This document shows positions 11,053 through 39,708 of a DNA stretch of 64,000 nt, one piece after another (position 1 is the stretch's first letter; every line of letters starts with the position of its first letter). This DNA is from an uncultured Ignavibacteriaceae bacterium (lineage in GTDB: Bacteria > Bacteroidota > Ignavibacteria > Ignavibacteriales > Ignavibacteriaceae). Where the stretch lies: positions 6,017 through 70,016 of the forward strand of contig CAVUCF010000027.1 of the NCBI GenBank assembly GCA_963739915.1, written 5' to 3'. Under the pieces are notes generated by a model, which was not told where the DNA came from, made no database searches, and saw nothing but the letters and a program-made list of their open reading frames with translations. Position numbers and translations under genes: made by a program.

Positions 11053-13038
11053 ATGCCTTCGAGCATAATTGCCAAATATTCACCCGAAATAATTTTCGGT
11101 GAAAATACCCCGGTTGCAATTACCGATAGTCATCTAAAAATAATTTGGTTCAGCAAAAGCTTTAAAGAATATTTTGCCGGGAACAAATTAAAAGGGAAAA
11201 CACTCGCCAGCCTATTAAATTCAGCCGGAATAGATAAGGACACTGAAGAGGTTTATAAAAAACCGACAATTCGTCAGTTACCCGAAATAAATAAAGAGCT
11301 GCACATAACTCCACTTTTTGCGCAAAACAAAAAAGATAAACCTGACAACTATAAATTAGAACTTCTTGACTCAGCAATAGTATCCCAACCCAAAGCAATA
11401 AATGACAAGTCGAGCAAAGATAATATAAACTTTCGAAATGTGTTTCAGGATATCTTGACATTACTAGTAAAAGAAAATTCGATTGATAAGCTTTCTACTG
11501 AAATATTATCGAAGTCAGTTAACCTAACCAAAAGCGATCTTGGAATAATTACATTCTTAATTGAAAATTCAGAAACAGAATTTAAATATCTTGACCCGCA
11601 GAATATTGTTTCAAATAAATCAGATATTGAAAAAACCGTTAAATCTGATTTCAAGTTTATAAGCAAGTGGTTGATGTTAAATAAATCATCCCTGGTGGCA
11701 GCAAACCAGAAAAATAACCTGGGCAGAAATCTTGCATCTTCTATAGGCTGTGATAATATTCTAGTTGCACCTTGTATCTTTGATGAAAAACTTATTGCAA
11801 CTTTGATTGTAGGAAAATTAAAAGATGAATTTACAATCGATGAAATAAAACTTTTAGAGGAATTCTCGACCCTCCTTACATTCATCATAAGCAACATTAG
11901 AACACGCGATTTAAATACAGCGCTTGAAAGCAGGTTATTACAAGCACAGAAGCTTGAAACGATCGGGAAATTATCAAGCGGAATGGCGCACGATTTTGGC
12001 AACCTTCTTTCCAGCATCTTCGGAAGTTTAAACTTATTAAGAAAGCGAGTCGATCAAACAGATAACGTTCAAAAACTGATTGACAATATTGAAAACTGTT
12101 CGGTAAGAGCCCGGGATTTAACAAAAGGATTGCTCTCATTCGGAAAGCCAACTCCCAAGAGAAAGGAACTTGTAAAACCACACCAGCTATTGAGTGAGAT
12201 TATTAAAATTGTAAACCAAACCTTCCCCAAAGCAATAACACTTACTGAAAAAATTGATACTTCTCTTTATGATATTGTTGGCAATGGGACGGAAATCAAT
12301 CAAGTAATTCTCAATTTGTGTGTTAATGCAAAAGAAGCCATCAAAGAAAGAGGAAATATTAATATTATTGCGAAGAACATAACGATAGACGAGAATAACA
12401 TTTCTTTTCTGCCGCTTTTACAAATCGGGAATTATGTAAGGTTTTCTGTAACAGATGATGGTGTTGGTATAGATGAAAAACACCTGACTAAAATATTTGA
12501 TCCATATTTTTCAACGAAGGTGAAAGATACCGGCTCTGGTTTAGGTTTATATGTTTCCTATGGAATAATAAAAGCACACAATGGATTTATAGATGTGACA
12601 AGTAAGCCCGGAGCGGGAACTACTTTTGATGTTTACATTCCTGCCTTCGAACCTCCTAAAGAAAAGAAAACTGATCCGTCCGAGAAAATTATTTTACTTG
12701 CAGATGACGAACCAATGCTGGGAGATCTTCTCGCTGAACTTCTTGAAACAAGTGGATATTCAGTAATAAAAGTAGCATCCGGAAAGGAAGCACTTAAAGT
12801 TCTTACTGAAGAAATTAAAGTCGATCTTGCTATTATTGATTATAATATGCCGGGGTTATCAGGTCTTGAAACAATTGCAGAGATAAGAAAACTAAATCTG
12901 GATATCCCGATTATTTTATCATCAGGAAGTTTGTGGACAAATCAGGAATCAGAATTTTTAAAATACCAAATCAACGGCCAGCTGAACAAGCCTTATGAAT
13001 TTGAAGCGATGCTGGCTACTATCAGGAAATTCGTTTAA
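11053..13038 (+). CDS. hybrid sensor histidine kinase (N-terminal sensory/GAF-like region + HisKA + HATPase + REC)
   Basis: H-box SSGMAHDFGNLL, N-box LNLCVNAKEA, G-boxes DDGVGI and GSGLGL, and a C-terminal receiver ILLADDE...DLAIIDYNMPG...KP. Confidence 0.9.
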   Translation: MPSSIIAKYSPEIIFGENTPVAITDSHLKIIWFSKSFKEYFAGNKLKGKTLASLLNSAGIDKDTEEVYKKPTIRQLPEINKELHITPLFAQNKKDKPDNYKLELLDSAIVSQPKAINDKSSKDNINFRNVFQDILTLLVKENSIDKLSTEILSKSVNLTKSDLGIITFLIENSETEFKYLDPQNIVSNKSDIEKTVKSDFKFISKWLMLNKSSLVAANQKNNLGRNLASSIGCDNILVAPCIFDEKLIATLIVGKLKDEFTIDEIKLLEEFSTLLTFIISNIRTRDLNTALESRLLQAQKLETIGKLSSGMAHDFGNLLSSIFGSLNLLRKRVDQTDNVQKLIDNIENCSVRARDLTKGLLSFGKPTPKRKELVKPHQLLSEIIKIVNQTFPKAITLTEKIDTSLYDIVGNGTEINQVILNLCVNAKEAIKERGNINIIAKNITIDENNISFLPLLQIGNYVRFSVTDDGVGIDEKHLTKIFDPYFSTKVKDTGSGLGLYVSYGIIKAHNGFIDVTSKPGAGTTFDVYIPAFEPPKEKKTDPSEKIILLADDEPMLGDLLAELLETSGYSVIKVASGKEALKVLTEEIKVDLAIIDYNMPGLSGLETIAEIRKLNLDIPIILSSGSLWTNQESEFLKYQINGQLNKPYEFEAMLATIRKFV

Positions 13039-13709
13039 CCTTCCATTTCACTACTATCCACCTTAATCATCTTAACATCTTTAGCGTAATCAGATAGTTC
13101 CGGTTTGGTTATAGAATTTAATTTGTTCAGAACATCGCTGATATCTTTTATTGCAGCATCAATGTATTTAACACGACTTAAAATTGATTCCCTGGTGAAT
13201 CCTTCTTTTTCAAGTTCTTTCTTAATTGCCGCAGATGAAAGACTGAGCAACGTGAGGGGTTGTTTAATTTTATGATTTGCTGTTACTATCGTGGCAATGA
13301 ACGTTGTTCGTTTTTCTACTTCCAGAAGCTGTTGATTAGCTTCAGAAAGTTTAAGAGCCGATTTTACTCTTGCAATCAACTCAATACGATTAAAAGGTTT
13401 CTTTATATAATCGAAGGCGCCAGATTCAAGGCCTTCTTTAGTATCCTCTGCACCAGCTTTTGCAGTTACAAGAATGATTGGAATGTGCTTTGTCTTTTCA
13501 TCGTTAACAAGAGTTTTACAGACATCAAGCCCGCTCATATCCGGCATCATCACATCCAACAAAATAAGATCGGGTAAAGTAGAATACGCCTTTTCCATTC
13601 CATCGTTGCCGCCGTAAGCTGTAATTACTTCATACCCTTCCTGAGCCAGCCGGTCCTGCAGGATAAATATATTTTCGGGAAGATCATCAATGACCAGAAT
13701 TTTTTTCAT
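13035..13709 (-). CDS. response regulator: REC domain fused to a stand-alone HisKA/DHp-like helix pair (no ATPase domain)
   Basis: REC (ILVIDD...LILLDVMMPDMSG...KP) followed by TIVTANHKIKQPLTLLS, which resembles an H-box (compare SHELRTPL). The protein ends 90 aa later with no N/G boxes. Confidence 0.8.
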   Translation of the reverse strand: MKKILVIDDLPENIFILQDRLAQEGYEVITAYGGNDGMEKAYSTLPDLILLDVMMPDMSGLDVCKTLVNDEKTKHIPIILVTAKAGAEDTKEGLESGAFDYIKKPFNRIELIARVKSALKLSEANQQLLEVEKRTTFIATIVTANHKIKQPLTLLSLSSAAIKKELEKEGFTRESILSRVKYIDAAIKDISDVLNKLNSITKPELSDYAKDVKMIKVDSSEMEG

Positions 13710-13710
13710 T

Positions 13711-16700
13711 TCACGTTGTCTTTAGTTGATTTATTAACTGTTGAATCTTGTGTACAACAAAAGCAGGGTTAACAGGCTTGGGAATGTAGCCGGTGAATCC
13801 ATGTTTTAAAATGATTTCGTTATCTTCTTTCATAGCTTTTGCAGTAACAGCAAAAACAGGAATATCTGACCACTTATTATTTCCCTTAATCTGCTTGATT
13901 GTTTTGAAACCATCCATCTCCGGCATAATGATATCTAAAAGTATTAAGTCGGGAATTTTTGTTTCCAACAATTCCAGGCATTCTTTACCATTATGAGCAA
14001 TTATTGGATTGCAATTAGCCTCTTGAACTATTTCAGCTAAAGTAAAAAGAGTGTTGGGATCATCATCAACAATCATAATATCTAATTCGGAATTTTCATC
14101 ACTGATATGTTGAGGTTCCGGCAGAATACTTTTATCTATTTCTGATTTAGAGATAGAATTTAATCCCGAAGATTGAGAATATTTTACAGACTCCTGATTT
14201 TCAAGCCAGCTCTGTACAAGCCTGAATGCATCAGCAATCTGCCGGTTAGAGTTTAATGTAATTGCTTCGAGAATATCGGAAAGAGATTTCTTGTCTTCGT
14301 TGCTTATTTCACTTTCACAAGAAATAATTATGGGGATAGACTTCGTCTCAGAATTTGATTTCAGCATATAAGTAAGTGTTATACCATCGATACCAGACAT
14401 TGTTAAATCTAATATTATCAGGTCCGGATTCGTATCTTCAATTTTGCTTAATGCTTCTTCACTTTCATTTATTAGTTCAACCTTTGCCTCATCAGAATTC
14501 AAAAGTTGATTAAATTTTTTTAATTCCTGATCATCGTCATCGATAACTGCAATTTTTTGAATATTCTTATTAAAGCTGTTTCCTAATTTGAAAAAGACTT
14601 CAGACAGATATTCAGAGGACAACGGCTTTATTAAATAATCAAATGCTTCAAGCACATAAGCACGATTTTCTTCTTCATTAATTGAAACAAGAATTACAGG
14701 AATATTTTGTGTGTTAACATTTTGCTTTAATTCTTTAATAATATCCCAGCAATTTGTTCTTTTTAGATTTACATTTAGGACGATCGCAATCGGTTGACGA
14801 TCAGTTATGCTTTGAAAATCTAGATTACTGTCTTCTATAAAAATTGATTCATAACCCAGGGAAGAAAGATATTTGCTGGTGGCTGACTTTAATTCATTTC
14901 CCCGATCAATTACAATTATCGGTTTTTTTCCGTTTTTAATAATCGGGAGAATTTCCACCGGTATTCTGTTCTGTTCTCTACTAAATACCTTCACTTGATT
15001 AAATGGAATTGAAAAAGTAAAGGTAGAGCCTTGCTTAAGTTCACTTATAACAGAAAGATTTCCATTCAGAATATCAGACAGCTTCTTGCTTATAGCAAGA
15101 CCCAATCCGGTTCCTCCTCTTCTTCGAGACTTAGAACTATTTGATTGCCGGAACTCCTCAAAAATCACATCAATCTCTTCTTGAGAAATACCAATGCCTG
15201 TATCAACTACTTCAAAGTTTAGCATCTCATTTCCAACCGAAATTTTTAGAACTACTCTTCCTTCATCAGTGTACTTAACAGCGTTTCCTAAAAGATTTAT
15301 AAGAACCTGAACAACTTTTCCACGATCAGTACTAATGACAGTGTGGGGATCAATTTTTCTTACCACTTCGTAACTAATCTTCTTTTCATTTGCCAGCATT
15401 AAAATTCCAGCAGAAACTTCGGCAATAATTTCTTCGAGGATAACATCTTCATGCATCACTTCAACTTTGCCAGCTTCAATTTTCGATAAATCAAGGATGT
15501 CATTTATAAGTGTCATCAATCTTTTACCACTGTTCAGAACCACTTCAAGCCTTTCCTTATTTCGTGGCTCAAGATCAACTTTTTCCAGCATAAGCTCAGT
15601 TAGTCCAAGAATTGAATTCATTGGAGTGCGAAGTTCATGAGACATACTTGCAAGGAATTTAGACTTTGCATCTGTTAATTCAATTGCTCTTTGTCTCTGT
15701 CTTTCCAGTTCCTCAGCCTGAACTTTTAACTCGTTATGAAGTTGTAGTAACGTTTCATTTTGTTCTTTGATCTGAACATTTTGTTTTTGATATTCTTCAT
15801 TCAGTTGTTGAAGCTCAACGACTAATTTTTCAAGCTGCAATAAGGCTCCGGCGTTAGTAATTCCGATTGCCAACTGATCTTTTATTTTTTCCAGATAATC
15901 TCGAACTTCTTCCCGCGGTCTGGTCAACGAACCTAATTCTAAAACAGCGATTGACTTATTATTATAAACTATCGGCAGGAAAAGCATGTATTTAATTTTA
16001 ATATCAAGCAAACCTGTTGAAACAACCGGAAGATCTTCTTCGTTGTAAAGTTCAAGACTCTGTTTTGTTTCAAGAACTTTTTTAAAGAAATCCGCAATTC
16101 CCGGACGTACTGAATAGTTAGTATTTAAACCATACGAAGAGATAAGCGTAATGTTGTCGTCAACACTATAAAGCCCACCAATTAAAAAATCTCCCGTGTC
16201 AAGAATTTTCTTCAAAGCAACGTCTGATATTTCTTTAAGTGACGGATTTTGATTAATAAGAGTAATGAATTCAGCATATTCATTTTTTGCAACTTCCTTC
16301 TTCTTAAGTTCTTCCAGCATTTTGTTAAATGCTGCCCCTAATTTTCCGATTTCATCCTTACTCTTAACCTCAATTTTATAATCGAATTTTCCTGCATAAG
16401 TTTGTTCAGTTGCTTTACTTAATTCAGTTACCTGATTTCTAAATTTATGAGTGAAGACAAGTGTAAAAATCAAAGAGAGAGCGATACCGACAAACCCGAT
16501 AATGATAAAAATACTTTGTAGAGTGCTTCTTAATTCACCAGCTTCTGCAAACGTACCAAATATTAAATAATAAACTTCGTCCTGACCAGCCGCCGTTGTG
16601 GGCTTATATATCGTTGCCAAAATATCTTTGGACTCAGTGCCTTGAATATAAAGTTCAAAATTGTTTTTATTTTTTAGGTTATCAACAGCCTGGCTTAATA

Positions 16701-17256
16701 CGTATAAATATTTCTGATTATCCATCTGGTTAGAAAAATCAGCAGGATAACTATTCCAGATTAGTGCGATGTCCGAATTAATCCTCTTTGAGATTTCATT
16801 AAGCATGTCATTATTGATAGCTCTTCCATATACATATTTTTTTCCATCAGGAGCAGAAAAATTCATTATCATCAAATACGGATTATAACTTTTGAATTCT
16901 CTGATGTTGAATTCTTTTTCAGGAAGGATAATATAGTTTTTAGTCAAATGCTTTGAGATCATCTCTTCCTTTTCATTTCCTAATTCCAGAATAAAATCAA
17001 TGTTCTTTAATTGAAGAGTTTGTTCATCCCAAAACTTTTCTATACCCCGATTATATATTGAAAAAAAATCATCCTCTGTATCTGATTGAAGTGTCCTGTA
17101 AACGTATATAAAATTATTTGCAGATTGTCTTAAATTGCGGGTTTGAGATGATGTAAGAACATCATAAACAATGCTGTAAAATACAAAAAAAGAACTGCCT
17201 AGTATTAGTACTACAATCAGAAAATTGATTAACAATATTCTCAGGCTGATCTTCAT
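13711..17256 (-). CDS. large transmembrane hybrid histidine kinase (sensor domain-TM-HAMP-GAF-coiled coil-HisKA-HATPase-REC*-REC-REC)
   Basis: Two TM helices bracket a sensor domain of about 215 aa. Also present: an HAMP region, the H-box MSHELRTPMN, and the boxes NLLGNAVKYT / DTGIGI / GTGLGL. There are three receiver-like domains. The first has Asn in place of the phospho-Asp (IAIVLNVNL). Confidence 0.9.
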   Translation of the reverse strand: MKISLRILLINFLIVVLILGSSFFVFYSIVYDVLTSSQTRNLRQSANNFIYVYRTLQSDTEDDFFSIYNRGIEKFWDEQTLQLKNIDFILELGNEKEEMISKHLTKNYIILPEKEFNIREFKSYNPYLMIMNFSAPDGKKYVYGRAINNDMLNEISKRINSDIALIWNSYPADFSNQMDNQKYLYVLSQAVDNLKNKNNFELYIQGTESKDILATIYKPTTAAGQDEVYYLIFGTFAEAGELRSTLQSIFIIIGFVGIALSLIFTLVFTHKFRNQVTELSKATEQTYAGKFDYKIEVKSKDEIGKLGAAFNKMLEELKKKEVAKNEYAEFITLINQNPSLKEISDVALKKILDTGDFLIGGLYSVDDNITLISSYGLNTNYSVRPGIADFFKKVLETKQSLELYNEEDLPVVSTGLLDIKIKYMLFLPIVYNNKSIAVLELGSLTRPREEVRDYLEKIKDQLAIGITNAGALLQLEKLVVELQQLNEEYQKQNVQIKEQNETLLQLHNELKVQAEELERQRQRAIELTDAKSKFLASMSHELRTPMNSILGLTELMLEKVDLEPRNKERLEVVLNSGKRLMTLINDILDLSKIEAGKVEVMHEDVILEEIIAEVSAGILMLANEKKISYEVVRKIDPHTVISTDRGKVVQVLINLLGNAVKYTDEGRVVLKISVGNEMLNFEVVDTGIGISQEEIDVIFEEFRQSNSSKSRRRGGTGLGLAISKKLSDILNGNLSVISELKQGSTFTFSIPFNQVKVFSREQNRIPVEILPIIKNGKKPIIVIDRGNELKSATSKYLSSLGYESIFIEDSNLDFQSITDRQPIAIVLNVNLKRTNCWDIIKELKQNVNTQNIPVILVSINEEENRAYVLEAFDYLIKPLSSEYLSEVFFKLGNSFNKNIQKIAVIDDDDQELKKFNQLLNSDEAKVELINESEEALSKIEDTNPDLIILDLTMSGIDGITLTYMLKSNSETKSIPIIISCESEISNEDKKSLSDILEAITLNSNRQIADAFRLVQSWLENQESVKYSQSSGLNSISKSEIDKSILPEPQHISDENSELDIMIVDDDPNTLFTLAEIVQEANCNPIIAHNGKECLELLETKIPDLILLDIIMPEMDGFKTIKQIKGNNKWSDIPVFAVTAKAMKEDNEIILKHGFTGYIPKPVNPAFVVHKIQQLINQLKTT

Positions 17257-17279
17257 TTATTTTGCTTTGAAGGAATTAA

Positions 17280-17645
17280 TTATTTTTTTTGAATTACTCT
17301 TCTAATAGAAGCAAGAAGTTTGCCAAAATCATAGGGCTTAATTATAAAATCTGAAGCACCTAACCTTGCAGATTCTATGGCACTTTTTACGTCTGAGTGG
17401 GCAGTTAAAATGATTATTTTAGGTTTGATGCCCGGATAAGAATTGATTTCTTGCTGAATTTGAAATCCATCTTTCCCGGGCATATTAAGGTCAAGAAGAA
17501 TGAGATCGGTTTCTTTATCTTTTAAGAATTCTGTTACATTTTCACTGTTTGTTAAACAAGATGTTGTGTAACCAGCTGCATTTAATTCTTCCGAAAGAAA
17601 ATTGCACAGATTAATGTCATCATCAACAATAAGAATTGATTCCAT
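17280..17645 (-). CDS. single-domain response regulator (CheY-like)
   Basis: 121 aa: ILIVDDD...DLILLDLNMPGKDG...TAHSD...KP. Confidence 0.9.
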   Translation of the reverse strand: MESILIVDDDINLCNFLSEELNAAGYTTSCLTNSENVTEFLKDKETDLILLDLNMPGKDGFQIQQEINSYPGIKPKIIILTAHSDVKSAIESARLGASDFIIKPYDFGKLLASIRRVIQKK

Positions 17646-17647
17646 TA

Positions 17648-18900
17648 TTACGGTGTCTTGGCATCGTCGCCTTCATTAAATTCATAGTACTTCATTTGGT
17701 TTTTACCAGCTTCTAATTCTTTACTGAGAACATTTTGCCACTGTGGATTATCAAATCTTTCCTGAAGTGTAGGAATGAGTTCCATCTTTAACAATATAAC
17801 AAGTTCTTTTTTCCGAATTATAGTTTGATCGTAGCCAGTTAAATACCTAATACCAAATACCCACCACGGAAGATCCATCAAGAATGGAATACCAACACGT
17901 GTTATCTGCCTCTTCATTAAGAAACAAACCTCCGATAGCAGTTTCTTCTCCATTAAGCATTAGAACCTGTGTGGCGGCAGTTGTCTTTCTAATTTCTGTC
18001 TGTAATTCGTTGGTTGAGAATGAACTTCGTTCAACACCTATATCCAATAGTGCATACTCTAAACCACCTTCTTTTTGAATATAAGGAGTAACTATTATTA
18101 TTGTTCCAGTTGGGAAGAATTGTTCAGTAGTATTTCCAGCAAAATCTCTTGTCTTAACTGAAAAATCTACACCAACCTGAATCTTTCCCTCTGTTCTATC
18201 TCGTACAGTTATACTTGGATTTGAAATAATATTTCCAATACCGGTTTCATCAAAGAACTTAAAGATAGCAGTTGCCTGTCCAAAAAGATCGCCCATTTGA
18301 AAGGCAGAATTAATTCCCATTTTAAATTCCGGCTGAAGACCTTGCTGCTGCTGTTGTCCTCCACCTTCTTGACTTTGATCTCTCTCAGTTTCAGTTCTTA
18401 AGTTTCCGGCAATGTTTGTTTGTTCTCCTGATAATAAAAATCTCCAATCAAAGCCTATTTTTCTGGCTTCGACAACGTCTATTTCACAAAACAGAGCCGA
18501 TATTTTTACCTCACGTTGAGTTAGTGGGGCATATGTATTTGGGATCCTTATTAGCATCTTCGTCATCTTTAGACCGAACTATAATGACATCCTCTTTTAC
18601 TTCGTATTCGAAGCCGGCAAAATTTACGATCATAAGAAGCGCCTTATCGAAAGGCATATTGATTACTTCAATACCGATTGGATCCTTCTTTTGAACTGTA
18701 GAAACAATCCTTCTTCCAGAAACACTTTCGCTTACTTTGCTGAGCAATTCTATTGCCTGATCAAAGGGAAGTGTTTCGGACATTGTTACAAGCTCGTCAG
18801 GATTCTGATAAGTTTTGAACCGTCTTTCCCAATAATCCTGGGCTGTTACCTGAAGAACTATGAGAAGAGATAAAACGAAATAAGTTATTATGTTTTTCAT
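17648..18900 (-). pseudogene. compact secretin (PilQ/GspD family, about 417 aa), split by two frameshifts
   Basis: Three overlapping ORFs (18900-18511, 18566-17847, 17953-17648) read through as signal peptide, N-domain and secretin core. Core motifs are SNPSITVRDRTEGKIQVG and ...TAIGGLFLNEE[shift]ITRVGIPFLMDLPWWVFGIRYL. The shifts lie near 18515-18545 and 17905-17915. Confidence 0.8.
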
Positions 18901-18913
18901 GCTTATACTCTAT

Positions 18914-19792
18914 TTATTTACTTAAATTTCTGTCTAATTGCAGTGTTACTTGTTCAATAATACCACCCTTGTTAAGGATGAAGCTGACCGTATTATTGTC
19001 ATAATCAATTTTGGTAAGGTATCCTAAGTAAACCTGTTCACCTTCCCAAACTAAATAAGTATTACCCTTGTTATCCGCAACGAATGCACCTTCAGGAATT
19101 AACGCAAGTAATCTGCCTCCCTGAACGTCAAGTAAGTTATCGACATTTGGAGGAATCTCATTTCTTATGAGAGGATAGAAGGCGTCATAAATCGGACCGG
19201 TAGCAAGATTATTTTCAACAAACTCAGCCGGTGCAAATCTGGTATCTGACGAAAAATAAACCTGTGCTATAAGCTCAAAGTTTACAAGGAAGAGCGGTAC
19301 TTCATCATCCGTCTTAACCAGATTGGAAAAAGTAAGTTTTCCGATCTTTTTTAGCTCCTTGCTTTGTTCGATAGCATAGATCATTTTATAAACGTCGTTA
19401 TAATTTCCACCGCCAGCAAGCTTGTATTCGTGAAAGAAAAACTCCTTGTCAGGTGCCTGTCTCAGGTACTCTATATTAACAGTTGTTTCCTTCGGGAATT
19501 CAGCAACAATGCTGTTAATGAAGTTATAGAACTTAATTGAGGAAACGTTCTGAGGAATATTGAACTTCCTGTTGGCAAGGATTGAATCTAACTCGGCTGA
19601 TCTTTTTTCGAGTTCAAGATACCGGTTGTTCAATTCTTCCGGATCATAAACATTCTTATTAAGTTCAGCCAGTTTTTCTTGTCTTTCTGATAAATCCCCT
19701 CGCTGAGCAACGAAGATATAAATACCACCGGCAACGAGGATAATTATCAGTAGTGCAAGCACACTGAGAGTGCTAATCAATTTCTTATTCAT
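18914..19792 (-). CDS. PilO-like pilus assembly protein with PilP-like C-terminal extension
   Basis: N-terminal TM helix, a coiled coil and a PilO-type alpha/beta domain to about residue 180, then about 110 further residues of beta-rich sequence. The call rests on operon position and architecture. Confidence 0.6.
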   Translation of the reverse strand: MNKKLISTLSVLALLIIILVAGGIYIFVAQRGDLSERQEKLAELNKNVYDPEELNNRYLELEKRSAELDSILANRKFNIPQNVSSIKFYNFINSIVAEFPKETTVNIEYLRQAPDKEFFFHEYKLAGGGNYNDVYKMIYAIEQSKELKKIGKLTFSNLVKTDDEVPLFLVNFELIAQVYFSSDTRFAPAEFVENNLATGPIYDAFYPLIRNEIPPNVDNLLDVQGGRLLALIPEGAFVADNKGNTYLVWEGEQVYLGYLTKIDYDNNTVSFILNKGGIIEQVTLQLDRNLSK

Positions 19793-21329
19793 TTTGATTC
19801 TTCTGATTTGAAATTTTAAAATTTAAATTGAACCTGTATGCACTCCTTTCCCTTAACTCTTCGTATAGCATACTTTGAAGCACTGCGTTATTGATTGAGT
19901 ATGCAAAATCTGTAAGGGAACTTCGTGTAAGAGAGTATCCTTCGGTTGTAACCTGGTCACCCTCATTACTCATTTTCGATATCCACATATTATTATTGTT
20001 TTGACAAAAACCTGATATCTTCTTTAATAAGCTCTGCCAAACTTCCGTGCCTGCAGCGGCTGAGTCTAAAATAGCCTGCGTTTGACCGAAACTGCTAATT
20101 TTTCCATCCAGGCTGGCAATCCTAACCAATACCTCCTGGTTCTGTCTCATAAGAATTGTTTTTGCTTCTATCTCTTTATCAAGCTCAGCAAGTGCTTTGT
20201 TATTATTTAGTACTTGTTGTGTGATAAAGAATGCAGCTACGAATAAAAGCGGTAAAAGTGCGTATCCATGCCAGGAAAACTGAAAGATTTTTTGTTCTTC
20301 TTTTATGTACTTTGGAAGTATGTGTAATCCGTGATGCTCTTTATTCAGTTCATCAAAATAATCAACTGCTATTGCTACAGGAATACTGAACGTAGAAAAT
20401 TTTTCTTTTGTTTCGTCATCAAGAGCTGATAAATCAAGATCATCAAATTCAAGCCGGCTTACATTTGCTTCGGGGAATGTTCCGTAAAATGATAATATGA
20501 TATTTTCAGAATCATCTTCTCCACAGACAATAATATTATCGAGAGAAGATATGCCTCCATTTTCCATCTCAAGTAATATTTTAGAAAAATAAACATCGTA
20601 GGTGTGAAGATTCTGAGTTCCAATATCAAGCGTGGTTCCAATGTGCTTTATTCTTCTTCCCTGTAAGAATATTAGTTTGCTATATTCCTTACCGATATAT
20701 ACAATCAAAGAATGATCATCCGGGAAGAATTTTTTCCTTTTAGCAACGTAATAAGCAAGCGAAAGATCTGAGCTTTTAATAGTGGGAATATTGAAACCTC
20801 GTTTACCCTTTTGCCTTGCAAGCGAATTGATCATGCTTGCACAAGGAATGTTTTCTGTTACGAAAACGGCAAGCAAGGCTTTATCAGAAAGTTCAACGAA
20901 ATCAATACTGCTTTTATCAACTAAGATATTTTTTGACTCTAAAATATCGTTGATTATAGCCTGTCTGAGCTTGGCAGGATTTTGATGTCTCTCACCTTCA
21001 TAAAGATGATAGTAAATATTTGGCTCAGTTAAAGCAGGTAGAAAAAGGTGCTTGCTTAAATTAAATCCACTAAGCGTTGCACTAAGCTCGGTCATTCCCG
21101 AGAAATCCAGGTCTCCTTTAGAAGATATAGAGTCATCTAATCCTTCTAATTGAAGAGATTCTTCTTCCACCTTAAAACCACCACCGGGTTTATCCAGACT
21201 GGCGGCAGATTTTGAATGACTTATTGAAGCTGTTTTAAGAACTGCCGGTTTGCCGGTTGCTGAGTCCTTACTAATAACAGCCAGTTTAATGTCACTGCTT
21301 TCACAATATATTGAAATTAATGGTTTCAT
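19785..21329 (-). CDS. PilM-PilN fusion (actin-like ATPase fold + TM + PilN-like periplasmic domain)
   Basis: About 345 aa are PilM-like (IVYIGKEYSKL, LDIGTQN). Then come ILPKYIKEEQK, a TM helix, a coiled coil and a C-terminal domain typical of PilN. There is a 4-bp overlap with pilT and an 8-bp overlap with the next gene. Confidence 0.6.
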   Translation of the reverse strand: MKPLISIYCESSDIKLAVISKDSATGKPAVLKTASISHSKSAASLDKPGGGFKVEEESLQLEGLDDSISSKGDLDFSGMTELSATLSGFNLSKHLFLPALTEPNIYYHLYEGERHQNPAKLRQAIINDILESKNILVDKSSIDFVELSDKALLAVFVTENIPCASMINSLARQKGKRGFNIPTIKSSDLSLAYYVAKRKKFFPDDHSLIVYIGKEYSKLIFLQGRRIKHIGTTLDIGTQNLHTYDVYFSKILLEMENGGISSLDNIIVCGEDDSENIILSFYGTFPEANVSRLEFDDLDLSALDDETKEKFSTFSIPVAIAVDYFDELNKEHHGLHILPKYIKEEQKIFQFSWHGYALLPLLFVAAFFITQQVLNNNKALAELDKEIEAKTILMRQNQEVLVRIASLDGKISSFGQTQAILDSAAAGTEVWQSLLKKISGFCQNNNNMWISKMSNEGDQVTTEGYSLTRSSLTDFAYSINNAVLQSMLYEELRERSAYRFNLNFKISNQKNQNE

Positions 21330-22555
21330 TTTGCTGACAACAATTGGTTGATTCTTGTTTTATTATTTGAATAAGTGATCGCTGTTTCAAGCGATATCCT
21401 TTTCTGATCATATAAACGCTTTAAATCCTGCTCCATAGTAAGCATGCCCAGCGGGCCGCCCTGGTTTATCATCATATAAATTTCACTGAGATTATTATTC
21501 TTTATAGCAGCTTTAACACTCGGTGTTATTATCAATACTTCTTTAGCTAACATAACTTTTCCATCAAGACTAGGTACCAGTTTCTGGGAAACAACAGATA
21601 CTAAAACATCTGCTAATCTGTTTCTAACCCTTTCCTGTTCAACTGCATCTACTTCTGCTATAATTCTTTCGATTGATTCAGTGGCTGATGATGTGTGCAA
21701 TGTGGAGAACACTTTATGACCGGTATCGGTAACTTCAAGAGCTGCCATTATAGTATCAGGATCTCTCATTTCACCTATTATTATAATATCCGGATCCTGT
21801 CTTAATGATTGTATAACACCTTCTTTAAATGAAAGAACATCTCTTCCAACTTCTCTGTGCTTAATAAGGCAAAAATTTGAACTATGCACATACTCAATTG
21901 GTGCTGCTATTATAATAAGGTGAGCGGGATCAAACTTATTATGAAAATCTACGATCGAGTCTAGTGTCGTTGATTTACCTGAACCGGTGATTCCTGTAAC
22001 AAGTGTTAATCCGAATTTAATGTAACTATGACTTAAGTATTTAAGTGCAGTGGGATGAAAATCAAGTGATGCAAGTGGACGAATATTAGTATTGATTGCT
22101 CTCATACTGCATCCAAGAGTGTCAAGATCAAAGTAAGCATCAGCTCTGAACCTTACATTAATTTTTCTTCTTTCATAGAAGAACGTGTAGCTAAAGTCAA
22201 GGTTTCTGGTTGCTGCAATATATTTCTTCTGATTTGAATTAAACATATTAGCAATAAGCAGAGCAGATTCATCTTCGGATAGTTGTGGCAGGTCTTTTAC
22301 TCTCTCCAGTTTCCCATAAATCCTCATCCAAAAATAACCTTCATTACCATGTCCACCAATTTCAATATCGGATGCATCCCGTTCAATCATCGAGGTGAGA
22401 ACTCTGTTAATAAATTTTCTCAAAAGAACTATTTCATCTTCTTTGAGCTTACCACTATTTTCAAGAATGTAAGCAACACGGTCCGGTCCGTAAACAGACT
22501 CAGGAATTCTTGCGCAAAAATCTGATAAAATCTTTTTTTCTTCTTTGACTATCAA
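21326..22555 (-). CDS. pilT: PilT-family type IV pilus retraction ATPase
   Basis: Walker A GITGSGKST, the Asp box/Walker B IIIIGEMRD, the His box TGHKVFSTLHT, and no N-terminal GspE-N domain. Confidence 0.85.
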   Translation of the reverse strand: MIVKEEKKILSDFCARIPESVYGPDRVAYILENSGKLKEDEIVLLRKFINRVLTSMIERDASDIEIGGHGNEGYFWMRIYGKLERVKDLPQLSEDESALLIANMFNSNQKKYIAATRNLDFSYTFFYERRKINVRFRADAYFDLDTLGCSMRAINTNIRPLASLDFHPTALKYLSHSYIKFGLTLVTGITGSGKSTTLDSIVDFHNKFDPAHLIIIAAPIEYVHSSNFCLIKHREVGRDVLSFKEGVIQSLRQDPDIIIIGEMRDPDTIMAALEVTDTGHKVFSTLHTSSATESIERIIAEVDAVEQERVRNRLADVLVSVVSQKLVPSLDGKVMLAKEVLIITPSVKAAIKNNNLSEIYMMINQGGPLGMLTMEQDLKRLYDQKRISLETAITYSNNKTRINQLLSAK

Positions 22556-22765
22556 CTTACAACCTTCTATTTGACTATTTACTAACCACTAAGACTTAGT
22601 TACTAACATGTTTTATTCCAACAGAAAACATAATAATAGGTCATAAAATCTTCCCCAAAACAAAAAAAATGCTGATTATTGACAAATTTATAACCACTTG
22701 TAAAAAATTTTAACGACCAAAACCACCCAACCTATTAAGTAAAACTTACTGAAAAATTGAAAATA

Positions 22766-24557
22766 TTAATCTTCAGTTGTTGATGAAAGAACTTCTTCAA
22801 GAGAAGTCATCCCAAGCTTAACCTTCTCAAATCCTGACTCTCTTAAGTTCAATGTTCCATCCTTCTTAGCCTGAACTTTAAGCAATTCTTCATCTACATC
22901 TTCTCCGGATTTTACAACCTGATGTCTTAACTCTTTAGTAAAATACAATGCTTCGTGTATTGCCATACGACCTTTGTAACCTGTTCCACCACACTCATCG
23001 CAACCAACAGCACGATAAGTTTCGTACTGCTTCCACTCTTCAATATTTAATCCTGCAACTTCCATAGTAACTTCATCGTGTTCAGTAACTCTCTTCTTAC
23101 ATTTCGAGCAAAGTTTTCGAATTAATCTTTGAGCAACTATAAGATTAATTGCATAAGCTATCAGGAAGGGTTCAATGCCCATTTTAAATAATCTTGATAC
23201 TGCACTTGTTGCATCATTAGTATGTAAAGTTGAAAATGTTAAGTGACCTGTGTTCGCTAATTTAATAGCTGTTTCAGCGGTCTCTTTATCTCTCATCTCA
23301 CCAACAAGCACTATATCCGGGTCGTGTCTTAAGATAGATCTGATAGCTTGTTCAAAATTCATCTTGTAGCCAATCTTTAGTTGACGAGCACCTTCAATAA
23401 CGTACTCAACAGGATCTTCTACCGTAAGAACATTCACTTCAGGATTGACAACCTGGTAAAGTGCAGCAACGAGCGTTGTACTTTTACCGCTTCCTGTGGG
23501 ACCGGTAAGTATTACCATTCCCTGTGGCTGATTAATTGCTTTAATAAATTTTTCTTTTGCTACACCCGTTAGCCCAAGCTTTTCAAGATCCCTAATAACT
23601 TTTCGGTCATCAAGAATTCTTATTACAACACTTTCAAATTTATTCTTCAATTCCGTTCCAACCATTGGCAGAACAGAAACTCTGAACCTGATAATGTATC
23701 CGTCTATTGCTCTCTGAATAAAACCATCTTGTGCAGTCTCACGCTCAAACCTATCCATGCCTTTTCCACGATCTTTAACAACTGCGATAACAGCTTCGGG
23801 CAAAGTATTTTCCTGCACATGCCACAAACGCAATGTTCCATCAATTCTCATATATATTTCAGGACCGATGACCACTGCATGGTATGAAGTGAACATCACT
23901 CGCACCCTTACGAACAGCTTCGAGCAATGCACCTTCAACAAGGTTTATCAGTGCACTCTTATTAATTTCCGCATCGAGTTCATCTTCATCAAGATCTTCC
24001 CGGTCTTCACTCGGAGCGAGGTTTTCCATTTCATCTGAAATGTTCTTCAGAAACACATTTTCCGGCGGGATGATTTTTTCTATCAGCCGATCGTAGTCTT
24101 TTTTCTTAATGAAGATTACTTCATACTTTTTAGCATTTAGACCAAAAGCAACTTTCGGAACATTTCTGTTAGTAGGATCTGTTGCGGCGATAATTAATTT
24201 ATCTTTTGTCTGTTCGTCATAAATAAATGGTATGATCTTGTCCCTGAGCATAAGTTCTTTAAGCTCTTCCCCACCACCTTCAATCATATTACGTATAGTT
24301 TCAAGGTAATCAGGCTGTATAGTCGCCAAATCAATATCGAGCTCGCGGAAGGCATAAAGAATTGCTACTTCTCTGAAAATAATATCGTGGTCATAATTAA
24401 AGTCATCAACAAGTATCTGGGCAAGGTTTCTTCTTAGCTTGTTACGATCATTGAACTTTGCATTAAGAGCTTTGTCCAATGTTGCGGCATCAATAATTCC
24501 CTTTTTAAAGAGCAGATAGCCTATTTTATCGTTAACTTCCAATTTTGTCTCAATCAT
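22766..24557 (-). pseudogene. pilB: PilB/GspE-family assembly ATPase, split by one frameshift near 23868-23885
   Basis: ORF 24557-23859 holds the GspE-N domain plus ...GASDVHFIP. ORF 23941-22766 continues with ...VVIGPEIYMRIDG, Walker A GPTGSGKSTT, VGEMRD, TGHLTFSTLHTN and the tetracysteine CSKC...CDEC. Confidence 0.85.
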
Positions 24558-24576
24558 TTATCAGCCTTGGACTTTC

Positions 24577-25920
24577 CTAATTCACGCCAGGTGTTTTGGG
24601 TCTTACTGTAGCAGTCTCAGCAGAAACAAGAGTCAATGCTATCATTATTACCATTATTACCATCGCAATAGTTACCTGAATAATTTCAATAAGGTTCTTT
24701 AAGCGGAACACCGTTTCACTCTCATAATAGTTTGCTAATTGCAACGCTGTATTTTTAATTGTACCTGACTCTTCACCAGAGTGAATTCTTGAGATAGCCG
24801 TTTCTGTAAAAACACCCGAAGCTTCAAAAGCGTCGGTAACTCCCACACCCTTTTTAAGCATAAGAGGGATGGCAATATTTTTAATCCGATTTTCAAAGTA
24901 CGTGTTACCAGTAGCTTCCGCAGCAATTCTTATAGGCTCGATACTTTCAGCAGAGCCATGATAAAGTGTATAAAACACGCGGCAAAAAACTTCAATACAA
25001 GTTTTGTGAATTAAGCTTCCTATTACAGGCAACTTTAAAATATATTCATCAAAAAGCAGTCTGCCTTTTTTAGTACGCACAAATTGAAATAATGCAATTG
25101 GAGGAATGAAAAGCACTCCTGCAATCAGCCAGGGGTTTCCCACTAAGAAATCACTCAGCTTAAGTGTGAATGCAGTCATCGGAGGTAATTCAATTCCAAA
25201 ACGAACGAACAGTTTTGCGGTCTCTGGAAAGATATAACCAACGTAAAAAATTACAGCCAGAAATAAAACAAAGAGCGTAACCATCGGAGTTATGAGGGCA
25301 CTTCTTAAGCTCTTTCTGAATTCCTGTTGTCTTTCAAGGAACTTTGCGGTTGCAATATAAATCTCTGCCATGTTACCACTCTTGGATGCAAGTCCAAGCA
25401 TATAAGCAGTAAACTTTCCAAATATATTTTGATACTTTAAGAAAGTTGCTTCAGAGTCGGCACCTTTCTTAAGATCATTGCTTATTTCTTTTAATGTGTT
25501 TCTTAATGCTGCGTTTTGTGTGTCGTTAGTAAGCAGTGTTAAAATTTCACCGTAGCCAAGTTTCTGGTTTAATAATTCTGCACTTATTTTTACAAAAGTC
25601 ACTATCTCATTATTTGGTGGTTTACGCTGAAAATCTAATAGTTTTCTATTAACAGATAATATGCTATATCCCAACCTGGTTAAAGCCTCTTCAACCTCTT
25701 TTTTAGTGTACGCTTTCTGCTCGCCACGAATTGGTTTGTCTTTTCCTTTGCGAACACGATATAGATAAGTAGATTTCCTTTGAACATCATTAAGTTTTAA
25801 CTTATTCTTTTCTACAAGTTTCTGAATCTTTTTCTTCCCCTCAATGGATGAACCGGCCGTAACCGTTCCCGTAATTGCCTGACCATTAGGTTTAAGCGCT
25901 GTGAATTTTAACTCAACCAT
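24577..25920 (-). CDS. pilC: PilC/GspF-family platform protein
   Basis: 447 aa with a duplicated T2SS-F domain and three TM segments. Confidence 0.85.
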   Translation of the reverse strand: MVELKFTALKPNGQAITGTVTAGSSIEGKKKIQKLVEKNKLKLNDVQRKSTYLYRVRKGKDKPIRGEQKAYTKKEVEEALTRLGYSILSVNRKLLDFQRKPPNNEIVTFVKISAELLNQKLGYGEILTLLTNDTQNAALRNTLKEISNDLKKGADSEATFLKYQNIFGKFTAYMLGLASKSGNMAEIYIATAKFLERQQEFRKSLRSALITPMVTLFVLFLAVIFYVGYIFPETAKLFVRFGIELPPMTAFTLKLSDFLVGNPWLIAGVLFIPPIALFQFVRTKKGRLLFDEYILKLPVIGSLIHKTCIEVFCRVFYTLYHGSAESIEPIRIAAEATGNTYFENRIKNIAIPLMLKKGVGVTDAFEASGVFTETAISRIHSGEESGTIKNTALQLANYYESETVFRLKNLIEIIQVTIAMVIMVIMIALTLVSAETATVRPKTPGVN

Positions 25921-26041
25921 CTTCCACTCTTTATTGATGAATTTATTGTTTTGATTTCAACGTCAAATTTGGTTCCGAAATTTTCATTGATTTTTTGCAC
26001 AATTCATACAGTTTAATATTTGAAGAGAAGTAAAAAGTTGT

Positions 26042-26081
26042 TTAAAAAGAAAAAGGCTGCAATATTTTCTATTGCAGCCTT
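26042..26081 (-). terminator. rho-independent terminator after the pilin-like gene pair
   Basis: AAGGCTGCAAT-ATTTTCT-ATTGCAGCCTT. On the minus strand it is followed by TTTTTCTTTTT. Confidence 0.75.
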
Positions 26082-26184
26082 AAACTTTAATGAATGCTAT
26101 CTAAGATAGCAAAGATATGTTTACGGGATTTATTACCGTTTAATACTAGTCGGTGTAACTGTTGTCTCAACAGTCCAAGTATAA

Positions 26185-26514
26185 CTAGCTTCTAACGGGT
26201 GTTCCGGTAAGCACTACTTGCTGTGCTTCTATAGCAGCACTATAACTACCATTAGCAGTATTTACTAAGTTTAACGGAATTGCCCAGGTTACACCATTTA
26301 CTCCAGTTCCATCAAATGTATTTCCGCCACCGCCCATTGATCCAGGCTTTTTGTAATGCTGCTGTGCCATAGCACCTAAGTTAGTATTATCGGATACGAC
26401 TCCGTCTTTTGCTGCTTCTTCAGCATTTGCGTTGAAAAGATTAATACCAACAACTACAGCGATACCAACTATGATAACGCCAAGAACGATTAAGAGAAGC
26501 TGTTGCTGACCCAT
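26185..26514 (-). CDS. non-canonical pilin-like protein, paralog 2 (MGQQQLL N-terminus)
   Basis: 109 aa. MG, then QQQ, then a hydrophobic helix of about 22 aa (LLLIVLGVIIVGIAVVVGINLF), then a small soluble domain. GGAG RBS 9 nt upstream. An in-frame stop lies 33 nt upstream with no alternative start. Confidence 0.6.
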   Translation of the reverse strand: MGQQQLLLIVLGVIIVGIAVVVGINLFNANAEEAAKDGVVSDNTNLGAMAQQHYKKPGSMGGGGNTFDGTGVNGVTWAIPLNLVNTANGSYSAAIEAQQVVLTGTPVRS

Positions 26515-26993: not shown

Positions 26994-27010
26994 GAGTAAA
27001 AAGTATGCCA
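26994..27010 (-). promoter_or_regulatory. candidate sigma54 (-24/-12) promoter for the pilin-like genes
   Basis: The minus strand reads cTGGCATacttTTTACt. The GG sits at the correct spacing, but the -12 element is TTAC rather than TTGC. It lies about 40 nt upstream of the ATG at 26956. Confidence 0.35.
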
Positions 27011-39703: not shown

Positions 39704-39708
39704 AAACT

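What the first reader, a model, noticed from the sequence alone, without database searches (positions are those of the whole stretch)
13035..25920. Pilus machinery operon packed tightly with a CheA-less multi-step phosphorelay
On the minus strand the genes run in this order:
- pilC, then pilB after a 19-bp gap.
- pilT after a 210-bp gap.
- PilM-N, with a 4-bp ATGA overlap with pilT.
- PilO-P, with an 8-bp overlap.
- Secretin, after a 13-bp gap.
- CheY-like REC, after a 2-bp gap.
- The 1181-aa TM-HAMP-GAF hybrid kinase with three receivers, after a 23-bp gap.
- REC-DHp, after a 1-bp gap.

This packing implies co-transcription of the pilus motor and secretin with five receiver domains, one kinase core and one extra His-containing DHp. 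No CheA, CheW, MCP, PilG/H-ChpA or FimX-type proteins are present.

The operon ends in a shared TTAA. The stop codons of the convergent HK-REC gene (13036-13038, +) and of REC-DHp (13035-13037, -) overlap, and no terminator lies between them.

Known pilus control systems use a separate PilS/PilR pair and a chemotaxis-like Chp/Pix/Frz module. A dedicated His-Asp-His-Asp relay embedded after the secretin gene is not an arrangement I recognise.
Basis: partly seen in the sequence, partly recalled or inferred. Interest (0 to 1): 0.68.

Follow-up and report, generated by a model that had tools for sequence, protein, structure and literature searches.

The report
Ignavibacteria pilus locus with built-in regulators
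This is the standard pilus gene cluster of Ignavibacteria, which always carries its own multi-part sensor-regulator module, most likely an expanded version of the known PilS/PilR pilus control, so it is a lineage-specific variant and not a new kind of system.

Summary
In this sequence, however, pilB is split by one single-base insertion and the secretin gene by two. Essential genes elsewhere in the window (aspS, hemC, a racemase) are split too. Near-identical strains have intact secretin genes, and more distant relatives have intact pilB, so these are assembly errors.

The order pilin-pilin-pilC-pilB-pilT-PilMN-PilOP-secretin-REC-HK-REC/DHp, convergent with HK-REC and a sigma-54 activator, is kept in all 45 Ignavibacteria genome loci found. 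It is also kept in six more distant metagenome loci, down to about 32% kinase identity. The functional link is therefore well supported.

The relay was overcounted: one of the kinase's three receivers lacks the phospho-accepting Asp here, a second lacks two conserved residues, and some relatives lack both.

A conserved GTAA-N3-TTAC palindrome about 75 nt upstream of a TGGCAY box lies before the pilin gene, inside the 210-bp pilB-pilT gap, and before a neighbouring small gene.

Best reading: an expanded PilSR-like circuit, possibly using the CA-less REC-DHp protein as a His transfer step. This is a new variant of a known kind, of moderate interest.

The parts
27073..27083 (-). Upstream palindrome-like site GTAAATATTTC (family GTA[AG]-N3-TT[ATG]C), candidate activator binding site for the pilin promoter.
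   Evidence: Lies 74 nt upstream of the TGGCAT box. The motif is found 62-76 nt upstream of the box in 22 of 24 non-redundant pilin upstream regions, at 10.0 per kb against 0.32 per kb background.
26996..27010 (-). TGGCATACTTTTTAC: sigma-54-like -24/-12 box (TGGCAY-N5-TTNY; the -12 GC is absent), 55 nt upstream of the pilin ATG.
   Evidence: Conserved in relatives where the rest of the spacer is not. One of only two matches to the pattern in the window.
26573..26956 (-). Pilin-like protein A (127 aa), N-terminus MGQQQLLMIVL...
   Evidence: Conserved position and N-terminus in all loci. No family match.
26133..26514 (-). Pilin-like protein B, frameshifted near 26185-26200 (109-aa ORF here, 123-135 aa in relatives).
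26053..26081 (-). Intrinsic-terminator-like hairpin (12 pairs plus a T run) between the pilin genes and pilC.
   Evidence: The hairpin is conserved in L001 and L006, and equivalent hairpins occur in L003 and L005.
25962..25980 (-). Conserved box TTTCGGAACCAAATTTGAC upstream of pilC, a candidate promoter element.
   Evidence: TTTCGGAAC and ATTTGA are invariant in five loci, including distant ones, in an otherwise poorly conserved spacer.
24577..25920 (-). pilC platform protein (447 aa).
   Evidence: Pfam T2SSF, two stretches. NCBIfam GspF/PilC hits.
22766..24557 (-). pilB extension ATPase, split by a 1-nt insertion at about 23861 (596 aa and intact in relatives).
   Evidence: NCBIfam best hit is type IV-A PilB, TIGR02538, E=5e-126, for the intact L001 ortholog.
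22556..22765 (-). 210-bp pilB-pilT spacer. It holds GTAAGTTTTAC (22739-22749) and, 76 nt downstream, AGCATTTTTTTTG (22661-22673). Candidate internal regulated promoter.
   Evidence: 83% column identity among five loci, against 52-56% for the other spacers. The motif lies 16-19 nt after the pilB stop in 21 of 39 non-redundant loci; a 22nd carries it at position 134. No stable RNA fold (z=-1.3).
21326..22555 (-). pilT-family retraction ATPase (409 aa).
   Evidence: Pfam T2SSE. NCBIfam TIGR01420 scores 314.5 bits against a cut-off of 319.1.
19785..21329 (-). 514-aa fused PilM-PilN-like (GspL-like) protein: cytoplasmic actin-like part, one TM segment (about 351-369), periplasmic alpha/beta domain.
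   Evidence: No family match. Low-confidence model (pLDDT 57). Foldseek top hits are FtsA, then PulL/EpsL/XcpY, PilO and PulM domains. Recurrent sub-threshold PilN hits in this protein and in distant family members.
18914..19792 (-). 292-aa membrane-anchored protein in the PilO/PilP position.
   Evidence: Conserved at 47-97% identity in all loci. No family match. The role is inferred from position only.
17648..18900 (-). Secretin, split by two 1-nt insertions (18537-18540 and 17904). It is 416 aa and intact in strains 97-99% identical.
   Evidence: Pfam Secretin. NCBIfam best hit is PilQ.
17280..17645 (-). Single-domain receiver (121 aa) with all five conserved receiver residues. It is closest to the receiver of the neighbouring sigma-54 activator.
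13711..17256 (-). Membrane hybrid kinase HK1 (1181 aa): TM, about 215-aa outside domain, TM, HAMP, GAF, DHp (H540), CA, receiver a (no Asp), receiver b (no Thr/Lys), receiver c (all conserved residues).
   Evidence: More than 700 homologs, with full-length orthologs at 50-85% identity.
13035..13709 (-). REC-DHp protein (224 aa): receiver with all conserved residues, plus a helical hairpin with an H-box-like TANHKIKQPLT (His146). No ATP-binding domain.
11053..13038 (+). Convergent soluble hybrid kinase HK2 (GAF, HisKA, HATPase, REC; 661 aa). Its stop codon overlaps that of REC-DHp.
   Evidence: Conserved in synteny.
9667..11046 (+). NtrC/PilR-type response regulator (REC, sigma-54 AAA+ domain, Fis-type HTH). 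Its sigma-54 contact loop reads GAFTDA.
   Evidence: Pfam Sigma54_activat E=3e-66. NCBIfam. GAFTDA in 40 of 42 hits, and in all 39 ortholog hits from Ignavibacteria loci where the motif could be read.
8998..9306 (-). Conserved 102-aa small membrane protein with a Cys-rich tail. It is preceded by GTAAAATTTAC (9425-9435) and a TGGCAC box (9343-9357), so it may belong to the same regulon.
   Evidence: The motif pair is seen only in the window's own clade: 8 of 28 non-redundant loci, window included.

Best explanation
This is the type IVa-like pilus locus of the Ignavibacteria lineage. A dedicated five-gene signalling module is permanently attached to it.

Shown:
- The pilus genes are two pilin-like genes, pilC, pilB, pilT, a fused PilM/N-like gene, a PilO/P-position gene and a short secretin.
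- On the same strand, at 1-26 nt spacing, follow a CheY-like receiver, a membrane hybrid kinase (HK1) and a receiver-DHp protein that has no ATP-binding domain.
- Convergent with them are a soluble hybrid kinase (HK2) and an NtrC/PilR-type sigma-54 activator.
- The whole block is conserved across the lineage.

Inferred mechanism:
- HK1 senses a signal outside the cell or in the membrane, and HK2 senses one inside the cell.
- Phosphoryl groups pass from each kinase His to its own C-terminal receiver.
- They then pass, possibly through His146 of the REC-DHp protein acting as a Spo0B/ChpT-like transfer step, to the receiver of the sigma-54 activator.
- The activator binds GTAA-N3-TTAC sites about 75 nt upstream of TGGCAY-type promoters. 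It switches on the pilin genes and, from the pilB-pilT gap, the pilT-to-REC-DHp transcript. That transcript includes the signalling genes, so the circuit would feed back on itself.
- The single receiver, whose closest paralog is the activator's receiver, acts as a competing phosphate sink or as a direct link to the pilus motor.

In short, it works like an elaborated PilS/PilR system. The frameshifts in pilB and the secretin here are sequencing or assembly errors.
For: Synteny:
- The same order is found in L001, L003, L005 and L006.
- All 45 genome-contig loci, including Ignavibacterium album MAGs, keep it at PilOP identity 47-97%.
- L063 to L068 keep it at HK1 identity 32-38%.
- Junctions stay at 1-26 nt, and the HK1/REC-DHp gap is 1 nt in the four closest loci.

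Pilus identity:
- Pfam and NCBIfam matches for PilB, PilT, PilC and the secretin.

Signalling parts:
- Residue checks on the receivers.
- The H-box His is invariant in 46 of 46 loci plus six more.
- The REC-DHp model is a receiver plus a helical hairpin.
- REC-DHp and the activator are as conserved as the ATPases.

Regulatory DNA:
- A conserved TGGCAY box and upstream palindrome lie before the pilin genes, with about 30-fold enrichment and fixed spacing.
- The same pair lies in the pilB-pilT gap and before h102.
- The only DNA-binding protein encoded in the block is the sigma-54 activator.

Distant relatives:
- They still pair this pilus type with a sigma-54 activator. L058 has REC-DHp-like plus activator. 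L060 has a PAS kinase plus activator.

Precedent:
- A hybrid kinase plus an NtrC-like regulator controls pilus genes in Myxococcus (PMC9109919).

Frameshifts are errors:
- aspS, hemC and a racemase gene are also split.
- L008 and L012, at 97-99% identity, have intact secretins.
- Other long-read MAG loci show random splits.
Against: - No transcript, phosphotransfer or binding data exist for any member.
- The promoter box lacks the near-universal -12 GC of sigma-54 promoters. In the pilB-pilT gap its -24 reads AG, not GG.
- The activator's sigma-54 contact loop is GAFTDA instead of GAFTGA.
- The H+1 residue of the REC-DHp H-box is Lys, not the usual acidic residue, and the His is Tyr in L058. 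The hairpin could therefore be a phosphatase or a docking module and not a transfer step.
- No HPt domain is present.
- Which kinase talks to which receiver is unknown.
- The pilin-like proteins lack a prepilin leader, and no prepilin peptidase is in the window, so even the nature of the filament is uncertain.
- The PilM/N fold evidence rests on a low-confidence model.
Confidence: 0.6

Rival explanations
1. REC-DHp is not a phosphotransfer step. Its hairpin is a receiver-controlled phosphatase, or a docking or dimerisation module, that acts on the activator or the single receiver. The system is then two ordinary branched two-component pathways and not a His-Asp-His-Asp relay.
For: - The H+1 residue is Lys and H+4 is Gln, instead of the E/D..T/N residues of HisKA kinases (the motif roles come from my own knowledge of HisKA biochemistry).
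- The His is Tyr in L058, where the protein persists next to the activator without any kinase.
- The HisKA match is only E=0.008.
- Fold search gives no specific DHp or Spo0B hit.
Against: - The His is invariant in all 52 loci that also carry the kinases.
- The FxAxx...H..K.PLT pattern aligns with canonical H-boxes.
- No other His-transfer protein is encoded for two hybrid kinases that each end in a receiver.
Confidence: 0.3
2. The signalling genes regulate something other than the pilus, and they sit next to the pilus genes only through lineage-specific gene order.
For: - No experimental link exists.
- Two-component genes are often inherited in blocks.
- NCBIfam places the activator nearest AtoC/NtrC-type families, and nothing marks it as PilR.
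Against: - Order and tight spacing are kept down to 32% kinase identity, while flanking genes change.
- The motif pair recurs at the pilin promoter and in the pilB-pilT gap.
- Distant pilus loci of this type keep a sigma-54 activator even when the kinases differ.
Confidence: 0.1
3. The pilus system is decaying in this organism: the frameshifts in pilB, the secretin and pilin B are real pseudogenising mutations.
For: Four of the frameshifts seen fall in pilus genes within about 9 kb. They are mostly not in long homopolymers.
Against: - Essential genes are split the same way: aspS, hemC and a glutamate-racemase-type gene.
- Independent assemblies 97-99% identical have intact secretins.
- The split genes keep high identity to intact orthologs right across the break.
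- Other MAG loci of the same kind show random splits in different genes.
Confidence: 0.07
4. The machine is a type II secretion-like or other type IV filament system and not a motility or adhesion pilus. The module then controls secretion.
For: - The fused PilM/N-like protein has the GspL layout.
- The secretin is short (414-416 aa).
- PilC scores best against GspF.
- The pilin-like proteins have no prepilin leader.
- The Melioribacter paper found no pilA or pilD.
Against: - A PilT-family retraction ATPase sits in the operon, scoring 314.5 bits against a cut-off of 319.1.
- PilB scores best against type IV-A PilB, and the secretin against PilQ.
- Type II secretion systems lack PilT (established knowledge).
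Confidence: 0.12

Closest known systems
PilS-PilR two-component control of type IV pilin genes (Pseudomonas, Myxococcus, Geobacter)
   Same: A sensor kinase and a REC-AAA+-HTH sigma-54 activator are encoded beside pilus genes. There is a candidate activator site upstream of a -24/-12-like box before the pilin gene. Control of other pilus genes is also likely.
   Different: - There are two hybrid kinases, one membrane-bound (HAMP-GAF) and one soluble (GAF), instead of the six-TM PilS.
- An extra single receiver and a CA-less REC-DHp protein are present.
- The activator loop reads GAFTDA, and the promoter lacks the -12 GC.
- Three of the signalling genes are fused onto the end of the pilT-to-secretin operon.
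Pil-Chp chemosensory system (PilG/PilH, ChpA, PilI, PilJ)
   Same: A single-domain CheY-like receiver is encoded with pilus genes. Several receivers and more than one His site are involved.
   Different: No CheA-type kinase, HPt domain, CheW or MCP is present. The kinase is a classical HisKA/HATPase_c enzyme.
HsfB-HsfA of Myxococcus xanthus (PMC9109919)
   Same: A hybrid kinase plus an NtrC-like regulator that directly controls pilus component genes.
   Different: hsfBA is not in the pilus cluster and also controls many non-pilus genes. It has no REC-DHp or extra receiver.
Spo0F-Spo0B-Spo0A and CckA-ChpT-CtrA phosphorelays
   Same: A DHp-like helical bundle with a His shuttles phosphate between receivers. 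A hybrid kinase ends in a receiver (CckA).
   Different: Spo0B and ChpT keep a degenerate CA-like domain and have no receiver. Here the hairpin is fused to a receiver and has no CA-like part at all. Transfer has not been shown.
GspL of type II secretion (fused PilM-PilN equivalent)
   Same: The 514-aa protein has a cytoplasmic actin-like part, one TM segment and a periplasmic ferredoxin-like domain.
   Different: It is encoded with PilT and a PilQ-like secretin. There is no detectable sequence match to the GspL or PilM families.

Membership tests
Type IVa pilus machinery | PilB-type extension ATPase | tested here: met
   Pfam T2SSE E=9e-96. The intact ortholog scores best against TIGR02538 PilB (422 bits, below the 676-bit equivalog cut-off). 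The gene is frameshifted in the window.
Type IVa pilus machinery | PilT-type retraction ATPase | tested here: met
   TIGR01420 scores 314.5 bits against a cut-off of 319.1, and the match is full length. It falls marginally below the curated threshold.
Type IVa pilus machinery | PilC platform protein and PilQ-type secretin | tested here: met
   T2SSF x2. Pfam Secretin, with PilQ as the best NCBIfam hit, far below cut-off.
Type IVa pilus machinery | PilM/N/O/P alignment proteins | tested here: inconclusive
   No family hits. The model is low-confidence (pLDDT 57). Foldseek finds FtsA, GspL, PilO and PulM at E of 1e-3 to 1e-1. Weak PilN hits recur. The 292-aa protein was not tested beyond position.
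Type IVa pilus machinery | Prepilin with a class III leader (G|FTLIE, Glu5) | tested here: not met
   Both pilin-like proteins start MGQQQLLLIVLG in all loci, with no leader and no Glu5.
Type IVa pilus machinery | Prepilin peptidase PilD | not testable with these tools
   None is found in the 64-kb window. The whole genome is not available. The Melioribacter genome paper reports pilD not found.
PilS-PilR type regulation | REC-AAA+(sigma-54)-HTH activator beside pilus genes | tested here: met
   Sigma54_activat E=3e-66, Response_reg and HTH_8. It is conserved next to the cluster in every locus long enough to show it.
PilS-PilR type regulation | GAFTGA sigma-54 contact loop | tested here: inconclusive
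   The loop reads E[KR]GAFTDA in 40 of 42 hits, and in all 39 ortholog hits from Ignavibacteria loci where it could be read. This is a one-residue variant whose effect is unknown.
PilS-PilR type regulation | Sigma-54 promoter (GG-N10-GC) before the pilin gene, with upstream activator sites | tested here: inconclusive
   A TGGCAY-N5-TT box and an upstream palindrome are conserved, but the -12 GC is absent. A sigma-70-type reading cannot be excluded.
PilS-PilR type regulation | PilS-like multi-TM kinase without a receiver | tested here: not met
   HK2 is soluble, with GAF and a C-terminal REC. HK1 has two TM segments, HAMP-GAF and receivers.
Pil-Chp / chemotaxis-like pilus control | CheA-type kinase (HPt, P2-P5), CheW, MCP | tested here: not met
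   No such domains occur in any ORF of the window.
Multi-step His-Asp-His-Asp phosphorelay | Hybrid kinase whose receiver has the acceptor Asp | tested here: met
   Receiver c of HK1 and the HK2 receiver have D, D, D, T/S, K. Receiver c is conserved in all orthologs.
Multi-step His-Asp-His-Asp phosphorelay | Second His carrier (HPt or Spo0B/ChpT-like) | tested here: inconclusive
   There is no HPt. REC-DHp has a predicted helical hairpin with His146 invariant in 52 loci. The His is Tyr in L058, and the H+1 residue is Lys.
Multi-step His-Asp-His-Asp phosphorelay | Demonstrated ordered phosphotransfer | not testable with these tools
   This requires biochemistry.

The most novel reading that the evidence does not exclude
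The receiver-DHp protein is a new type of receiver-gated, CA-less histidine phosphotransferase. It merges the inputs of two hybrid kinases onto a variant (GAFTDA) sigma-54 activator. This circuit controls an unusual pilus whose leaderless pilins (MGQQQLL...) are assembled without a prepilin peptidase.
Probability: 0.15. Interest if true: 0.6.

Novelty: new variant of a known kind. Interest (0 to 1): 0.35.

Why it matters
Nothing is published on how Ignavibacteria control their pili. These are abundant soil, sediment and bioreactor bacteria that sit between Bacteroidota and Chlorobia.

This analysis shows a fixed, lineage-wide wiring of pilus genes to a five-protein signalling set. It also gives concrete DNA motifs to test, and a compact CA-less REC-DHp protein that could be a simple model for DHp-type phosphotransfer.

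It also warns that the pilB and secretin 'pseudogenes' in this assembly are artefacts. The general principle, pilus genes governed by a neighbouring kinase and sigma-54 activator, is already well known.

Tried and rejected
- Rfam and tRNA scans of the window found only tRNA-Lys.
- The sigma-70 promoter scan was no better than chance (63 sites against 61.6 expected). Apart from the hairpin at 26053-26081, the terminator hits lie inside coding sequence.
- The 210-bp spacer does not fold better than shuffles (z=-1.3), so a structured RNA was dropped.
- Sequence searches of PDB with the DHp half and with the 514-aa protein gave nothing.
- Fold search with the REC-DHp model was swamped by receiver domains. 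The only longer matches were loose ones to EutV, LvrB and a REC-kinase, so it does not decide between DHp and other helical outputs.
- The homolog search with REC-DHp returned only close orthologs.
- My first motif regex used the wrong spacer length and found nothing. It was corrected.
- I considered programmed frameshifting in pilB and the secretin. I rejected it because near-identical strains lack the secretin insertions, all relatives have an intact pilB, and unrelated essential genes are split too.
- I considered an ECF-type reading of the GGAAC box upstream of pilC. I rejected it because the spacing is wrong.

Full report
**Observation**

- pilC is at 24577-25920.
- A 19-bp gap leads to pilB.
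- A 210-bp gap leads to pilT (21326-22555).
- pilT overlaps a 514-aa gene by 4 bp.
- That gene overlaps a 292-aa gene by 8 bp.
- A 13-bp gap leads to the secretin.
- A 2-bp gap leads to a 121-aa receiver.
- A 23-bp gap leads to an 1181-aa kinase.
- A 1-bp gap (TGAaATG) leads to a 224-aa REC-DHp protein.
- That protein's stop shares TTAA (13035-13038) with a convergent HK-REC gene.

Pfam and NCBIfam confirm T2SSF, two T2SSE ATPases (best models PilB and PilT), a Secretin domain, HAMP, GAF, HisKA, HATPase_c and receiver domains.

pilB is broken into two frames and the secretin into three. Comparison with orthologous proteins, and with strains 97-99% identical, places single extra bases at about 23861, at 18537-18540 and at 17904.

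Three observations point to errors.
- Pilin B, the essential aspS and hemC, and a glutamate-racemase-type gene are split in the same way.
- Independent assemblies L008 and L012 encode an intact 416-aa secretin.
- Many related loci come from MAGs labelled MFD, and several of these loci show random splits in other genes.

I conclude these are assembly errors and not decay of the pilus genes.

**Conservation**

The kinase has more than 700 homologs, with full-length orthologs at 50-85% identity named as Ignavibacteria.

Four loci at 53-85% kinase identity show the same full order: two small genes, pilC, pilB (596 aa), pilT, 514, 292, secretin (407-416 aa), REC, HK, REC-224, then convergent HK-REC and a sigma-54 response regulator. 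Their junctions are nearly identical.

A genome-collection scan seeded with the 292-aa protein returned 45 loci. All are Ignavibacteria, including Ignavibacterium album MAGs. Every one keeps this order as far as its contig reaches.

More distant loci (L063-L068, kinase identity 32-38%) keep it too.

Two still more distant pilus loci of the same family differ.
- L058 has only the REC-DHp-like gene plus the activator.
- L060 has a PAS kinase plus an activator.

The constant partner of this pilus type is therefore a sigma-54 activator. The Ignavibacteria version is an elaboration of that.

**The signalling parts**

- The single receiver, receiver c of HK1, the REC-DHp receiver, the HK2 receiver and the activator receiver all keep the conserved acidic pocket, Thr/Ser and Lys.
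- Receiver a of HK1 has Asn at the acceptor position.
- Receiver b lacks Thr and Lys.
- Orthologs at 53-57% identity still have receivers a and b with the full conserved set.
- Several relatives have deleted one or both of them, giving kinases of 907-1069 aa.

Only the last receiver is a fixed feature.

The REC-DHp protein is 64-98% identical across Ignavibacteria loci, comparable to the ATPases. Its model is a receiver followed by a helical hairpin (pLDDT 82). Its TANHKIKQPLT segment aligns with canonical H-boxes.

The His is present in 46 of 46 loci and in six more. It is Tyr in L058, the one relative without kinases. That pattern fits a His that matters only when kinases are present, but it rests on a single case. 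The non-acidic H+1 residue leaves a phosphatase or docking role open.

**Regulatory DNA**

Upstream of the first pilin gene, a TGGCAY-N5-TT box is conserved where the surrounding spacer is not. It has the spacing of a sigma-54 -24/-12 element but lacks the -12 GC.

A palindrome-like GTA[AG]-N3-TT[ATG]C lies 62-76 nt upstream of the box in 22 of 24 non-redundant loci, often with extra copies 13-20 nt apart. Its density is 10.0 per kb against 0.32 per kb in all fetched DNA.

In the whole 64-kb window, my scripted scan found this motif pair at only two places.
- Before the pilin gene: 27073-27083 with 26996-27010.
- Inside the pilB-pilT gap: 22739-22749 with 22661-22673.

A third pair precedes the small gene h102.

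The palindrome sits 16-19 nt after the pilB stop in 21 of 39 non-redundant loci, and a 22nd locus has it elsewhere in the gap.

A strong terminator-like hairpin follows the pilin genes. The locus therefore looks like at least three units:
1. the pilins;
2. pilC-pilB;
3. pilT through REC-DHp.

The signalling genes belong to the third unit.

The activator is the only DNA-binding protein encoded in the block. Its sigma-54 contact loop is uniformly GAFTDA.

**Mechanism and comparison**

The best-supported reading is an expanded PilS/PilR-type circuit. Two kinases with different sensory domains feed a sigma-54 activator that drives the pilin genes and the pilT-to-REC-DHp transcript. REC-DHp is a possible intermediate His carrier. 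The single receiver scores highest against the activator's receiver and would act as a sink or a motor link.

Myxococcus HsfBA is a precedent for a hybrid kinase plus an NtrC-like regulator acting on pilus genes. No Che-type parts are present.

The arrangement is not described in the literature I could search. [quoted passage not shown]

**Verdict**

This is a real, strongly conserved, lineage-specific variant of a known kind of pilus regulation. Other parts do not, namely that it stands apart from PilSR-type control, that it has five working receivers, and that it is a single operon. Interest is moderate.

Noticed in passing
window 26573-26956 and 26133-26514 (-); all related loci: The pilin-like proteins begin M-G-Q-Q-Q-L-L-L-I-V-L-G in every locus, with ATG, GTG or TTG always at the same codon. 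They therefore have no prepilin leader and no Glu5. No prepilin peptidase gene is in the window, and the Melioribacter genome paper also reports pilA and pilD as not found. This may be a pilus that needs no PilD.
   Followed up: partly
window 27461-29228, 33843-34797, 52918-53520, 26133-26514, 22766-24557, 17648-18900: Single-base frameshifts split at least seven genes, including the essential aspS, hemC and a glutamate-racemase-type gene. This is typical of an unpolished long-read assembly, so ORF-based gene calls in this window are unreliable.
   Followed up: yes
window 8998-9306 (-), with upstream sites 9425-9435 and 9343-9357: A conserved 102-aa protein has two predicted TM segments and a Cys-rich tail. 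It is always encoded next to the sigma-54 activator gene. In the window's clade it is preceded by the same palindrome-plus-TGGCAC pair as the pilin gene, so it may be a co-regulated pilus accessory or signalling protein.
   Followed up: partly
window 35428-36834 (+): One ORF combines TetR_N and TetR_C domains with a full HemD (uroporphyrinogen-III synthase) domain, inside a heme biosynthesis gene run. It may be a real regulator-enzyme fusion or an artefact of a missed frameshift or stop.
   Followed up: no
window 39151-41119 and 51772-53991: These two roughly 2-kb stretches have no long ORF. They hold fragments matching a Por_Secre_tail (T9SS-sorted) protein, Asp/Glu racemase and a SpoIIE-type phosphatase, so they are probably more genes broken by sequence errors.
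   Followed up: partly
window about 8960-9000, compared with L001 18325-18990: A 220-222-aa gene of unknown function lies between h102 and the SLT transglycosylase gene in four relatives. It is absent from the window.
   Followed up: no
window 17284-17291 (-): An A8 run at the 3' end of the single-receiver gene is A7 in a 99.5% identical assembly (L007). This changes the protein tail (QKK* versus QKNN*). It is either homopolymer error or strain variation.
   Followed up: partly
profile search hits P0425, P0443, P0470, P0491, P0509: Distant members of the fused PilM/N-like family (577 representatives) carry C-terminal TPR and/or SPOR domains. This suggests a peptidoglycan-anchored version of the protein in other lineages.
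   Followed up: no
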